NCBI GenBank assembly: GCA_964353635.1
Contig: CAYGVS010000004.1
Span: forward strand, 1-54,106
Direction of reading: 5' to 3'
Length of the DNA stretch: 54,106 nucleotides
Origin: an uncultured archaeon
Lineage (GTDB): Archaea > Aenigmatarchaeota > Aenigmatarchaeia > QMZP01
Translations under genes and position numbers: made by a program
In this document: one piece after another, positions 35,063 to 36,317 of the stretch
Layout: the number at the start of each line of letters is the position of its first letter
Position numbering within the stretch: the stretch's first letter is position 1
The notes under the pieces: model-generated
What the model was told of the DNA's origin: nothing
The model's input: the letters and a program-made list of their open reading frames with translations, nothing else
Databases searched by the model: none

Positions 35063-35198
35063 GCCTCAGTAGCTCAGCAGGTTCGGAAGTTTGAACGTGA
35101 CCGAGTCACGTTCTTTCGATGAGAAGAGCACTCGGCTGTTAACCTTGCAAGAAAGGGCTGATACCGAGTGGTCGAAGGTTCGAGTCCTTCCTGAGGCG
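35063..35198 (+). tRNA. tRNA-Asn(GTT) with an about 41-nt D-loop insertion (about 35083-35124) and a 21-nt 37/38 intron (35142-35162)
   Basis: Acceptor GCCTCAG/CTGAGGC+G, D stem GCTC/GAGC, anticodon stem CTCGG/CCGAG with CT-GTT-AA loop, T arm GAAGG-TTCGAGT-CCTTC; BHB at the 37/38 intron. Confidence 0.92.
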
Positions 35199-35219: not shown

Positions 35220-35492
35220 ATGGACATTAGGATGGAGTTGATATCAAACTGCTTCGATATCAGGGGATTCAACAAAAGGTGCAATTTCCATGGCTGCGCA
35301 AGGGCTCCTGAAAAGGAAGCCCTCATAATGGAGAATGACCTGAAGAGACAGCAGAAAAAGGAGCTCGTTTCCCTTTATTTCTGCAGCAAGCACTTCGACA
35401 TGTGTGTGAAGGATTTATTAAACCAACTGAACAAAATATGTGAGAGCGGCAAGAACGTGTACATGGAAAGCTACGAGGCAGGAGCGAAATAA
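35220..35492 (+). CDS. Small Cys-rich hypothetical protein, possible Zn binder
   Basis: GGTG RBS upstream; CNFHGC...FCSKH pattern; fills the gap between two tRNAs. Confidence 0.65.
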   Translation: MDIRMELISNCFDIRGFNKRCNFHGCARAPEKEALIMENDLKRQQKKELVSLYFCSKHFDMCVKDLLNQLNKICESGKNVYMESYEAGAK

Positions 35493-35542
35493 AAGAAAGC
35501 ACACCTAAAAAGCAGCAATAGATGGGACGACGGAAATGTCGC

Positions 35543-35719
35543 GGGAACCTTAAGGGGATTGAAGGCGACGAGAGTAGCCTTCGGGTCAATAAAGGCCGCA
35601 TCGGTAGCTCAGTCCGGGAGAGCACACGGCTGAAGATCGATTGACGACTTGCATGGGTTTATCAAGTCTTCTTTCTATTTGCGACCGTGGTGTCGTGGGT
35701 TCAAATCCCACTCGTCCCA
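35543..35719 (+). tRNA. tRNA-Phe(GAA) with a 55-nt acceptor-stem intron at 4/5 (35547-35601) and a 48-nt 37/38 intron (35636-35683)
   Basis: Spliced product GGGA|CGG TA GCTC AGTCCGGGA GAGC A CACGG CTGAAG|A CCGTG GTGTC GTGGG TTCAAAT CCCAC TCGTCCC A (74 nt); both introns sit in BHB-type motifs. Confidence 0.9.
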
Positions 35720-35738: not shown

Positions 35739-36317
35739 ATGGCAAAAAGCACGCAGGCGAAAGAGAAGAATGAAGTTCGTAGTATCTACAAGCCTGCGGA
35801 GTGCAGGCTCCTGGAGAACAAGCTCTTTGTTCCAAAGGGTTTTGATGAGCTGCTCCAAAGGTCTTACGGAAAACATATGGAAGGGAGATTGGAGCTGGCT
35901 TTCGTGGAGGCTCTCTACCTCCTTGAGAAAGGCAGGATAGCTGTCAAGAAGTCCGGGAAGAAGATGGGCTTCCAGGAGCTCATGGAGTTTGGGATGGAGA
36001 GGGACAAGAGGCTGCATGAGAAGTATGTCGTCTACAAGGACATTAGGGAGAGGGGACTGGTCGCCAAGACAGGTTTCAAGTTCGGATGTGATTTCAGGGT
36101 TTACCAGCGGGGAGTCGGCGTCAAGAAGGGTCCAAAGGAAGCCTCGGAGCACACGAAATGGATTGTTTACACAGTCCCTGAGGATTATGCGTGCTCCTTC
36201 GCTGAGCTCTCAAGGGCTGTGAGGCTTGCCCATTCTATAAGGGCCAGGATGCTCTGGGCGATAGTGGATAATGAGGACGATGTCACCTATTTCGAGGTCG
36301 TGAGGATAAAGCCTTAA
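35739..36317 (+). CDS. endA: tRNA-splicing endonuclease, single-unit (alpha4-like) subunit
   Basis: YGK..EG.LEL..VEALYL, VYKD.RERG..KTG.KFG.DFRVY, EH, R.AHS.R, AIVD..DV.Y....KP. Confidence 0.95.
   Translation: MAKSTQAKEKNEVRSIYKPAECRLLENKLFVPKGFDELLQRSYGKHMEGRLELAFVEALYLLEKGRIAVKKSGKKMGFQELMEFGMERDKRLHEKYVVYKDIRERGLVAKTGFKFGCDFRVYQRGVGVKKGPKEASEHTKWIVYTVPEDYACSFAELSRAVRLAHSIRARMLWAIVDNEDDVTYFEVVRIKP

What the first reader, a model, noticed from the sequence alone, without database searches (positions are those of the whole stretch)
35072..35129. tRNA-Asn D-loop carries an about 41-nt hairpin insertion without a textbook BHB
Seen: between AGCAGGT and AGAGC lies a long stem (TCGGAA/TTTCGA, then GAACGTGAC-cga-GTCACGTTC). 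Testing registers by hand I found no strict bulge-helix-bulge that yields a normal D loop; CTCA(35073-76) can alternatively pair with TGAG(35120-23), competing with the D stem. Either it is a relaxed-motif intron near 19/20-20/21 (unexpected for single-unit alpha4 enzymes, which prefer strict BHB) or the mature tRNA keeps a giant D arm.
Basis: partly seen in the sequence, partly recalled or inferred. Interest (0 to 1): 0.7.

Follow-up and report, generated by a model that had tools for sequence, protein, structure and literature searches.

The report
D-loop intron in archaeal tRNA-Asn
The hairpin inside the D loop of this tRNA-Asn gene is a 42-base intron at a known non-standard site, in a tiny archaeon whose tRNA genes are nearly all interrupted and which has the enzymes to remove such introns.

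Summary
Window 35063-35198 (+) is a tRNA-Asn(GTT) gene whose D loop carries a 42-nt hairpin insert (35083-35124). It also has a 21-nt intron at 37/38 (35142-35162). No strict bulge-helix-bulge forms: the central helix has 2 Watson-Crick pairs and 2 G.A mismatches, and the competing CTCA/TGAG pairing dominates the predicted fold.

It is still an ordinary archaeal intron at position 20/21, a site already listed in reviews. A species of the same genus has the same gene without the insert, which fixes the junction at 35082|35125, and a metagenome DNA contig skips exactly these 42 nt. In 14 D-loop introns from relatives, tRNA nt 15-18 pair with the four intron bases that end 2 nt before the 3' splice site (48 of 56 cells; shifted registers 9-31). 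This copy is one of the two weakest.

The genome (relatives are named Candidatus Aenigmatarchaeota) also encodes a three-unit epsilon-type EndA like that of ARMAN-2, and RtcB ligase. No second tRNA-Asn was found. No RNA data exist, so splicing is inferred.

Side observations: two EndA paralogues across the order, very few uninterrupted tRNA genes, and a hairpin repeat shared between introns.

The parts
35063..35198 (+). tRNA-Asn(GTT) gene with two introns (136 nt; 73 nt after removal of both)
   Evidence: The acceptor, D, anticodon and T stems can be read directly. BLAST of the intronless same-genus orthologue gives three blocks: 1-20, 21-40 and 38-73. ARAGORN calls tRNA-Asn(gtt) once the D insert is removed by coordinates in a script.
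35063..35082 (+). Exon 1, tRNA positions 1-20 (acceptor 5' strand, U8 A9, D-stem GCTC, D loop A14-U20)
   Evidence: 20 of 20 identical to intronless G003.
35083..35124 (+). D-loop intron at 20/21, 42 nt
   Evidence: Absent in G003 and in 18 other Asn genes of relatives. An X3 DNA contig joins 35082 to 35125.
35077..35080 (+). H5: exon nt 15-18 (GCAG), 5' strand of the central BHB helix. The 5' bulge is G19 U20 ^ U35083.
   Evidence: Register test on 14 introns.
35084..35118 (+). Intron body: outer helix h' (35084-88 / 35114-18, 5 bp with one G.U), a 4-nt bulge GTTT, and a 9-bp hairpin (35093-35101 / 35105-35113)
   Evidence: Folds give h' a pair probability of 0.91-0.95. There are two compensatory double changes in the 9-bp stem against G004.
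35119..35122 (+). H3: ATGA, 3' strand of the central helix. Only the middle two bases pair with C16 and A17. The same four positions read CTGT in G004 (4 pairs).
   Evidence: X3/X4 contigs carry A35119C and A35122T.
35123..35125 (+). 3' bulge G A ^ A21; the cut is inferred between 35124 and 35125
   Evidence: Exon junction from G003 and the X3 contig.
35125..35141 (+). Exon 2, positions 21-37 (A21, D-stem GAGC, A26, anticodon stem CTCGG, loop with GTT at 35138-40)
35142..35162 (+). Second intron, 21 nt, canonical 37/38. Its central helix is CTGT/GCTG with one U.U mismatch; h' is CCTT/AAGG.
   Evidence: Read. The block limits leave the junction ambiguous within the repeated ACC; 37/38 is chosen by BHB geometry (inference).
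35163..35198 (+). Exon 3, positions 38-73 (anticodon stem 3' strand, variable loop, T arm, acceptor 3' strand, discriminator G)
   Evidence: 35 of 36 identical to G003.
35524..35719 (+). Neighbouring tRNA-Phe(GAA), also interrupted. The 5' exon GGGACGA is at 35524-30. An insert of about 74 nt lies at about 7/8 (35531-35604), and an insert of about 51 nt lies in the anticodon loop.
   Evidence: The Rfam match at 35598-35719 has three acceptor mismatches and a 51-nt insertion. The upstream complement of the acceptor 3' strand was read. Boundaries were not checked against orthologues.
35739..36317 (+). Alpha-like tRNA-splicing endonuclease gene (192 aa), 20 nt downstream of tRNA-Phe
   Evidence: Pfam PF02778 + PF01974. 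PDB 5x89 and 1a79 match at E 6e-37 and 6e-35. The catalytic Lys position is Ala.

Best explanation
The insert is a protein-spliced archaeal tRNA intron at position 20/21 of the only detected tRNA-Asn gene. The gene has a second intron at 37/38.

Inferred mechanism. The pre-tRNA adopts a relaxed bulge-helix-bulge. The D stem (10-13/22-25) is one outer helix and CGGAA/UUUCG (35084-88/35114-18) is the other. Nt 15-18 face the intron bases 35119-22 as the central helix. The bulges G19-U20^U and G-A^A21 each present a splice site after their second base. A splicing endonuclease cuts at 35082|35083 and 35124|35125, and RtcB joins the exons, giving the normal 8-nt D loop AGCAGGUA.

In this species two substitutions have reduced the central helix to two Watson-Crick pairs, and a competing helix has arisen. 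Recognition must therefore rely on a broad-specificity enzyme and on the tRNA body.

What is shown: the gene anatomy, the exact exon junction (from DNA of relatives), the conserved register of the central helix, and the presence of the enzymes. What is inferred: that this RNA is cut at these sites, and which of the two endonuclease paralogues does it.
For: 1. Exact presence/absence. G003 (same genus) has ...CAGCAGGT|AGAGCACTCGG with no insert, and ARAGORN calls it tRNA-Asn(gtt). Its 73 nt align to the window in three blocks with 1 mismatch. A 47-nt DNA contig of run X3 joins 35082 to 35125, skipping 42 nt.

2. By my reading, about 30 distinct Asn(GTT) genes were found in the order. 8 have an intron at 20/21, 3 at about 22/23, and 19 have none in the D arm.

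3. Register test on 14 D-loop introns placed between GGT and AGAGC. The 4 exon bases ending 2 nt before the 5' site pair with the 4 intron bases ending 2 nt before the 3' site in 48 of 56 cells. Shifted registers give 9-31 of 56. Dealing H3 among the sequences reaches 48 in 1 of 5000 permutations.

4. Covariation. GCAG pairs with CTGT or TTGT, GTAG with TTAT, GTCG with CGAT, and AGCG with CGCT. The near-identical intron in G000 tRNA-Thr and G040 tRNA-Asn differs in its last 6 nt so as to match each host D loop.

5. Intron versus exon divergence. Exons are identical among G000, G004 and G002. The intron is about 30/42 identical to G004 by my count on alignment A2, with two compensatory changes in the hairpin, and is not alignable to G002.

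6. Enzymes. A three-unit epsilon-type EndA has all three catalytic residues in the alignment. An alpha-like EndA lies in the window. RtcB matches at E 2e-159.

7. Precedent. 20/21 is a listed non-canonical position (PMC4090602, passage). A D-loop intron of A. pernix pre-tRNA-Thr2 is cut in vitro by a broad-specificity EndA (PMC3241643, passages). ARMAN-2 epsilon2 EndA cuts a relaxed motif (PMC3239211, passages).

8. No other Asn gene was found: the next BLAST hits have E 0.19, and an anticodon-arm scan finds only this locus.
Against: No RNA evidence exists: no listed sequencing run is RNA, so splicing of this copy is not observed.

In this species the motif is poor. The central helix has 2 of 4 pairs, an extra A14 faces the 3' bulge, and naked-RNA folding puts the D stem at about 0.02, the central helix under 0.01, and the competing CUCA/UGAG helix at 0.77-0.79. 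Forcing the D stem costs 3.3 kcal/mol, and the full BHB-compatible fold scores -44.7 against -59.4 kcal/mol.

In the epsilon-type enzyme, the lysine shown to be essential in ARMAN-2 (K161) aligns with an arginine (PMC3488258). The alpha-like paralogue has Ala at the catalytic Lys position. Activity on this substrate is therefore unproven for both.

The assembly is 88% complete, so a second Asn gene cannot be excluded. The 14 introns in the register test come from related genomes and are not independent.
Confidence: 0.85

Rival explanations
1. The insert is not removed: the mature tRNA-Asn carries an enlarged D arm with a 42-nt extra hairpin.
For: No strict BHB forms, and the D stem and central helix are disfavoured in the predicted ensemble. 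The hairpin is stable, and its stem is kept by two compensatory changes in G004.
Against: The insert is missing in a congener with the same exons and in a related population's DNA. It differs completely in G002. The base-pairing register between nt 15-18 and the intron's 3' end is conserved and covaries, which serves no purpose in a retained arm. An insert after U20 would lie next to G18 and G19, which contact the T loop in the folded tRNA (established tRNA knowledge, recalled).
Confidence: 0.03
2. The locus is a decaying or poorly functional copy. The mutations that weakened the central helix have made the D-loop intron unspliceable, and Asn decoding depends on another gene not in the assembly.
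For: This copy is one of the two weakest of the 14 introns compared (2 of 4 pairs). Relative to G004, changes at 35119, 35122 and 35123 both break the central helix and create the competing TGAG. The assembly is 88% complete.
Against: All three exons are intact and match the intronless orthologue at 72 of 73 positions. All four cloverleaf stems are intact. No other Asn gene was found. Another Asn gene (L109) also has only 2 of 4 pairs. The two central pairs C16-G and A17-U are retained.
Confidence: 0.06
3. The insert is spliced, but at other sites or by another route than EndA acting on a BHB register. The route could be, for example, stepwise trimming, or cuts giving a D loop one base longer or shorter.
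For: Sequence alone allows small shifts (T35083 and A35124 repeat the flanking exon bases). T35083 can pair with A35119, which would make the 5' bulge G18-G19-U20 (pair probability 0.91).
Against: Only 35082|35125 reproduces the D loop of the intronless orthologues. The same 2-nt offsets on both sides hold in all 14 introns compared. No other tRNA intron removal pathway is known in archaea (recalled).
Confidence: 0.05

Closest known systems
Non-canonical archaeal tRNA introns at position 20/21, e.g. the D-loop intron of Aeropyrum pernix pre-tRNA-Thr2(UGU)
   Same: An intron in the D loop of an otherwise normal tRNA gene, accompanied in this lineage by canonical 37/38 introns. The splice sites lie in bulges flanking a short central helix. 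The A. pernix intron is cleaved in vitro by a broad-specificity EndA without other factors, more slowly than an anticodon-loop intron (PMC3241643, passages). 20/21 is listed among known sites (PMC4090602, passage).
   Different: The A. pernix intron is described as a canonical BHB. Here the central helix has 2 Watson-Crick pairs plus 2 G.A, and A14 lies opposite the 3' bulge. The host is a DPANN archaeon, not a crenarchaeon. The enzyme set is an epsilon-type plus an alpha-like EndA, not alpha2beta2 with a CSL loop.
Disrupted tRNA genes and the epsilon2 three-unit EndA of Candidatus Micrarchaeum acidiphilum (ARMAN-2)
   Same: An ultrasmall archaeon with many interrupted tRNA genes (56% in ARMAN-2) and relaxed motifs at non-canonical sites. 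A single polypeptide of about 390-436 aa aligns end to end with 4fz2 at E 3e-88, with the catalytic Tyr/His/Lys conserved (PMC3239211 and PMC3488258, passages).
   Different: The lineage differs: relatives are named Candidatus Aenigmatarchaeota. The essential K161 of the ARMAN-specific loop aligns with Arg, and the loop is one residue shorter. A second, alpha-like EndA gene is present here; for ARMAN-2 the paper reports a single protein. The ARMAN-2 examples shown in that paper are T-loop introns (53/54, 59/60), not D-loop introns.
tRNA intron transposition in Thermoproteales (Fujishima et al. 2010, known to me only through the passage in PMC4090602)
   Same: Near-identical intron sequences occur in tRNA genes of different isoacceptors. 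Here a 77-nt D-loop intron of G000 tRNA-Thr(GGT) is 97% identical over 70 nt to the D-loop intron of G040 tRNA-Asn.
   Different: The tRNA-Asn intron of this window has no other copy in its own genome. The shared element here also occurs outside tRNA genes and in both orientations, which looks more like a small palindromic repeat than an intron-only element.

Membership tests
Archaeal protein-spliced (BHB) tRNA intron, non-canonical position 20/21 | Interrupts a tRNA gene; removal restores a canonical cloverleaf and a normal D loop | tested here: met
   Removing 35083-35124 and 35142-35162 by coordinates gives a 73-nt tRNA-Asn(gtt) by ARAGORN; the unspliced gene gives none. The product equals the intronless G003 gene at 72 of 73 positions.
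Archaeal protein-spliced (BHB) tRNA intron, non-canonical position 20/21 | Strict hBHBh': a 4-bp central helix flanked by two 3-nt bulges on opposite strands, between two outer helices | tested here: not met
   The central helix is G.A, C-G, A-U, G.A, and A14 is unpaired opposite the 3' bulge. The central helix has probability under 0.01 in the ensemble.
Archaeal protein-spliced (BHB) tRNA intron, non-canonical position 20/21 | Relaxed motif (HBh'/hBH): each splice site lies in a bulge next to at least one stable helix, in the same register as strict relatives | tested here: met
   The 5' site lies next to the 5-bp h' helix (probability 0.91-0.95). The 3' site lies next to the D stem. The register is identical to that of 13 other introns, 6 of which have 4 of 4 pairs.
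Archaeal protein-spliced (BHB) tRNA intron, non-canonical position 20/21 | Presence/absence among orthologous genes at the exact exon junction | tested here: met
   G003 and 18 other Asn genes lack it. An X3 contig skips 35083-35124.
Archaeal protein-spliced (BHB) tRNA intron, non-canonical position 20/21 | Cleaved by EndA and ligated by RtcB, giving a mature tRNA without the insert | not testable with these tools
   No RNA run holds the locus. The genes for EndA and RtcB are present.
Epsilon2-type (three-unit) tRNA-splicing endonuclease (G000:C8:18807-20114, outside the window) | One polypeptide with alphaN, alpha and betaC units | tested here: met
   Residues 11-317 and 361-436 align to 4fz2 residues 13-294 and 312-387, E 3e-88. 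Pfam finds an N-terminal fragment and one catalytic domain.
Epsilon2-type (three-unit) tRNA-splicing endonuclease (G000:C8:18807-20114, outside the window) | Catalytic triad Tyr/His/Lys (Y236, H251, K282 in ARMAN-2) | tested here: met
   FRIY, IHSRH and AHSVKK align with the ARMAN-2 residues. Residue numbers are from PMC3488258.
Epsilon2-type (three-unit) tRNA-splicing endonuclease (G000:C8:18807-20114, outside the window) | ARMAN-specific loop with the essential Lys161 | tested here: inconclusive
   The loop is present, but GTYKVSEH aligns with GVYR-QER: Arg stands in place of Lys, and the loop is one residue shorter.
Alpha4-type EndA (window 35739-36317) | N-terminal plus catalytic domain in a protein of about 180 aa | tested here: met
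   PF02778 (52.9 bits) and PF01974 (95.3 bits). 1a79 matches at E 6e-35 over residues 30-192.
Alpha4-type EndA (window 35739-36317) | Complete catalytic triad Tyr/His/Lys | tested here: not met
   Tyr and His are present. The Lys of HSVRK aligns with Ala (HSIRA) against both 1a79 and 5x89. This Ala is invariant in 12 of 12 aligned homologues.

The most novel reading that the evidence does not exclude
Aenigmatarchaeota may run a two-endonuclease tRNA splicing system not described so far. One part is a three-unit epsilon-type EndA, reported in print only from Micrarchaeum and Mancarchaeum. The other is a strongly conserved alpha-like paralogue that lacks the catalytic lysine, carries a Lys-rich loop before the catalytic His, and sits beside intron-laden tRNA genes. 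Under this reading the degenerate D-loop motif of this tRNA-Asn (2 of 4 central pairs, with a competing helix) is a substrate that needs this enlarged machinery or the tRNA body, and not a BHB, for recognition. The lineage's near-total interruption of tRNA genes would then be a consequence.
Probability: 0.15. Interest if true: 0.6.

Novelty: new member of a known kind. Interest (0 to 1): 0.3.

Why it matters
For the finding itself, little changes. It is one more non-canonical archaeal tRNA intron at a known site, and it explains why standard tRNA finders miss tRNA-Asn in this genome.

It is useful for annotation. In this assembly ARAGORN finds 1 uninterrupted tRNA gene, and Rfam finds 5 tRNA matches at E<=1e-6. 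Genomes of this order would therefore look short of tRNAs unless intron-aware methods are used.

The context may matter more. Nearly every genome of the order has both an epsilon-type and a Lys-less alpha-like endonuclease. D-loop introns come and go between congeners. A degenerate motif such as this one gives a natural substrate series (G004 4 pairs, G002 4 with two G.U, G000 2) for asking what broad-specificity endonucleases really need.

Tried and rejected
- A strict BHB was sought by hand and by folding. None was found in this species.
- The alternative helix CTCA/TGAG was tested as a possible central helix. Its bulges would put the cuts at 35078|35079 and 35125|35126, leaving a 3-nt D loop, so it was rejected. 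It is also not conserved: G004 reads CTGTTC there.
- The ARAGORN scan of 14 x 13 alternative D-intron boundaries accepted almost every combination as tRNA-Asn. It cannot place the junction.
- RNA evidence: no RNA holder is listed for the locus. The four runs laid were DNA contigs only.
- A search of the own genome for other copies of the Asn D-loop intron found none above chance (best 12-nt matches, E 1.5 or worse).
- The resemblance of its hairpin to the D-loop intron of tRNA-Val(CAC) on C21 (alignment A2) is suggestive, but the stretch is too short to call homology.
- My cloverleaf scanner for interrupted tRNAs found 29 candidates, of which about 11 are convincing. It misses introns in stems and T loops, so no complete census is given.
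- Rfam with permissive thresholds on the hairpin repeat and its carriers found no family.
- Earlier findings of this scan: nothing near this place.
- Literature searches for tRNA introns or EndA types in Aenigmarchaeota found no paper on the subject in the library searched. Subscription journals are not covered.
- The supplement tables of the ARMAN papers were not opened. They may list D-loop introns in ARMAN-2.

Full report
**What is there**

Window 35063-35198 (+) reads as a tRNA-Asn(GTT) gene. Its parts are:
- acceptor stem GCCTCAG (35063-69) / CTGAGGC (35191-97), with discriminator G;
- D stem GCTC (35072-75) / GAGC (35126-29);
- anticodon stem CTCGG (35131-35) / CCGAG (35164-68), with GTT at 35138-40;
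- T arm GAAGG-TTCGAGT-CCTTC.

Two stretches interrupt it. One is a 42-nt insert in the D loop (35083-35124). The other is a 21-nt insert after position 37 (35142-35162).

TCGGAA pairs with TTTCGA. A GTTT bulge follows. Then comes a perfect 9-bp hairpin (35093-35101 / 35105-35113) with loop CGA.

The whole gene folds at -59.4 kcal/mol, z -5.44, with 0 of 200 shuffles as good. The D arm alone gives z -2.56, with 3 of 200 shuffles as good.

Standard tools miss the gene:
- ARAGORN finds nothing in the window.
- Rfam at gathering score finds only the neighbouring tRNA.
- In the genome-wide Rfam search this gene is a partial 17.2-bit match.

**Where the insert begins and ends**

A search of 60 relatives with the locus, followed by extraction of the genes, gave about 30 distinct tRNA-Asn(GTT) genes by my reading of the list.

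G003, of the same genus, has the gene with no insert at all. It reads ...CAGCAGGT|AGAGCACTCGGCTGTTAACCGAG..., and ARAGORN calls it tRNA-Asn(gtt).

BLAST of those 73 nt against this genome gives three blocks: 1-20 on 35063-82, 21-40 on 35125-44, and 38-73 on 35163-98. There is one mismatch, in the variable loop. The D-loop insert is therefore 35083-35124, between U20 and A21.

A 47-nt DNA contig from sediment run X3 joins 35082 directly to 35125. It may come from a G003-like population, so it is not independent of point one. It is nonetheless an observed DNA form without the 42 nt.

Removing both inserts by coordinates gives a 73-nt tRNA-Asn by ARAGORN. The unspliced gene gives none.

**Is there a BHB?**

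A BHB has a 4-bp helix flanked by two 3-nt bulges. In the canonical case anticodon bases 34 and 35 lie in that helix (PMC4090602, passage). This puts each cut after the second bulge base.

Applied here, the register is:
- D stem;
- A14;
- H5 = nt 15-18 (GCAG);
- bulge G19 U20 ^ U35083;
- outer helix CGGAA/UUUCG;
- H3 = 35119-22 (AUGA);
- bulge G A ^ A21;
- D stem.

H then reads G.A, C-G, A-U, G.A, which is not a strict BHB. Thermodynamics agrees. The D stem has probability about 0.02 and H under 0.01. Forcing the D stem costs 3.3 kcal/mol.

**Why it is still an intron of the ordinary kind**

The same register holds across relatives. I took every D-loop intron I had that lies between ...GGT and AGAGC..., 14 in all:
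- 10 Asn genes;
- 3 genes of other tRNAs in relatives;
- tRNA-Thr(GGT) of this genome.

H5 pairs with H3 in 48 of 56 cells. Shifting H3 by 1 to 4 bases either way gives 9-31 of 56. Dealing the H3 words among the sequences reaches 48 in 1 of 5000 permutations. The genomes are related, so this is not a clean probability.

The pairs covary. GCAG pairs with CTGT (G004) and TTGT (G002). GTAG pairs with TTAT (G040) and CTGT (G013). GTCG pairs with CGAT (tRNA-Thr). AGCG pairs with CGCT (L126, four Watson-Crick pairs directly abutting the D stem, a strict motif).

G000 and L109 are the weakest, with 2 of 4 pairs. Both keep two adjacent Watson-Crick pairs; in G000 these are the two central ones.

Relative to G004, the G000 intron differs at 35119, 35122 and 35123. 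These are exactly the bases that weaken H and create the competing TGAG. That competitor is absent in G004, which reads CTGTTC there.

The exons are identical among G000, G004 and G002. By contrast the intron is about 30/42 identical to G004 by my count on alignment A2, and two hairpin pairs are changed on both sides. It is unalignable to G002.

A retained structural arm would not be lost in a congener. It would also not need its 3' end to follow the D-loop sequence.

**The enzymes**

The genome has three Pfam PF01974 matches. One is in that gene. Two are in a single 451-aa open frame on contig C8.

The C8 protein (436 aa) aligns end to end with PDB 4fz2, the ARMAN-2 epsilon2 EndA, at E 3e-88. 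All three catalytic residues are aligned. That enzyme cuts both a strict motif and a relaxed hBH motif at 59/60 in vitro (PMC3239211, passages). Its K161, shown to be essential (PMC3488258, passages), aligns with Arg here.

The window's alpha-like protein matches 5x89 and 1a79. It has Ala where the catalytic Lys stands. That Ala is invariant in 12 of 12 aligned homologues, next to a conserved GVGVK(K/R)GPK stretch before the catalytic His. This resembles the L3 loop that Kaneta et al. associate with disrupted tRNA genes in DPANN alpha4 enzymes (PMC5829648, passages). I did not test that equivalence.

RtcB is present at E 2e-159. The machinery for non-canonical introns is thus encoded. Which paralogue acts on this substrate is unknown.

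**Lineage context**

Homologues of the alpha-like protein at 69-86% identity are labelled Candidatus Aenigmatarchaeota.

The epsilon-type gene is found in 86 of 91 genomes of the order at E 2e-34 or better. Two further genomes have only weak hits at the level of the alpha-like cross-match, and three have none.

Kaneta et al. (2018) state that the epsilon2 type was known only from Micrarchaeum and Mancarchaeum. Three library searches found nothing on Aenigmarchaeota.

Uninterrupted tRNA genes are scarce:
- ARAGORN finds 1 (Cys) in the whole 1.03-Mb assembly, and 11 with introns allowed.
- Rfam finds 19 matches at E<=1, of which 7 are over the cut-off.
- At E<=1e-6, the 25 genomes sampled have 0-26 tRNA matches, except G005 with 44.

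G005 is also one of the two genomes with only a weak hit to the epsilon-type query. That is a single case and the genome is incomplete, so it is a lead only.

In this genome D-loop introns also occur in tRNA-Thr(GGT) (C7), tRNA-Ala(CGC) (C45) and what I read as tRNA-Val(CAC) (C21).

Among the 30 Asn genes:
- 8 have the 20/21 intron;
- 3 have an intron at about 22/23;
- 19 have none in the D arm.

Among 36 distinct Asn genes next to the alpha-like gene in public contigs, 8 have an enlarged D loop, 22 have a normal one, and 6 did not fit my simple pattern. These contigs partly overlap the genomes.

**Comparison with what is known**

Position 20/21 is among the non-canonical sites listed in a review (PMC4090602). 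A D-loop intron of A. pernix pre-tRNA-Thr2 is processed in cells and cut in vitro by its EndA. Cleavage is slower than for an anticodon-loop intron, and an alpha'2 enzyme hardly cuts it at all (PMC3241643, passages).

The present case is a new member of that kind, in a lineage where it seems not to have been described, and with a degenerate motif. It is not a new kind of element.

**What remains open**

- No RNA data exist, so splicing of this copy, its efficiency, and the order in which the two introns are removed are all inferred.
- The assembly is 88% complete, so the claim of a sole Asn gene is provisional.
- I give no full tRNA census.

Noticed in passing
window 35524-35719: The neighbouring tRNA-Phe(GAA) is also doubly interrupted. 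The Rfam match at 35598-35719 has three acceptor mismatches. The true acceptor 5' strand GGGACGA lies at 35524-30, which implies an insert of about 74 nt at about 7/8 (35531-35604), in addition to the 51-nt anticodon-loop insert. Boundaries were not checked against orthologues.
   Followed up: partly
window 35739-36317: The alpha-like EndA gene starts 20 nt after tRNA-Phe. It has Ala at the catalytic Lys position (HSIRA against HSVRK), invariant in 12 of 12 homologues, and a conserved Lys-rich stretch before the catalytic His. In many relatives the gene lies within 0.3-2.5 kb of tRNA-Asn (coordinates; 36 Asn genes within 1.2 kb flanks).
   Followed up: partly
G000:C8:18807-20114 (outside the window; locus L002:1126-2436, minus strand): A three-unit epsilon-type EndA (436 aa) matches ARMAN-2 4fz2 at E 3e-88. 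It is present in 86 of 91 genomes of the order at E<=2e-34. The papers read say this type was known only from Micrarchaeum and Mancarchaeum. Arg stands at the position of the essential K161.
   Followed up: partly
G000:C7:3474-3550 (L075:325-401); G000:C45:2108-2158; G000:C8:9100-9147; loci L078-L096: A hairpin repeat of about 40-50 nt, with a conserved loop and a covarying outer stem, occurs in 26 of 91 genomes of the order, with up to 7 copies per genome. It lies in tRNA introns (D loop, T loop, both orientations) and also in non-tRNA DNA. No Rfam family matches it. The 77-nt D-loop intron of G000 tRNA-Thr(GGT) is 97% identical over 70 nt to the D-loop intron of tRNA-Asn in G040, a genome of another family. 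Only the last bases differ, and they match each host's D loop.
   Followed up: partly
whole genome G000 and 24 relatives: Readily detectable tRNA genes are very few. ARAGORN finds 1 in G000. Rfam hits at E<=1e-6 number 5 in G000, 0-12 in its genus, and 2-26 in the others sampled, but 44 in G005. G005 also has only a weak hit to the epsilon-type EndA query.
   Followed up: partly
window 35144-35162: The anticodon intron varies between strains. In run X1, a 142-nt contig covers 35114-35143 and 35163-35192 with 82 letters in between instead of 19. X3 and X4 contigs have 68 other letters at 35153-35155. G004 has an anticodon-loop intron of about 107 nt at the same site.
   Followed up: no
loci L038, L055, L058 (G068, G021, G018); L110, L119, L124, L165: There are other intron sites in the D arm of tRNA-Asn in relatives. 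One is at about 22/23, inside the D-stem 3' strand. Another appears to lie early in the D loop, after A14-G15. Positions were read by eye from the exon sequences.
   Followed up: no
window 35220-35492: A 90-aa ORF lies between tRNA-Asn and tRNA-Phe and has no Pfam match. Its start region is conserved downstream of tRNA-Asn in G003 and G017.
   Followed up: no
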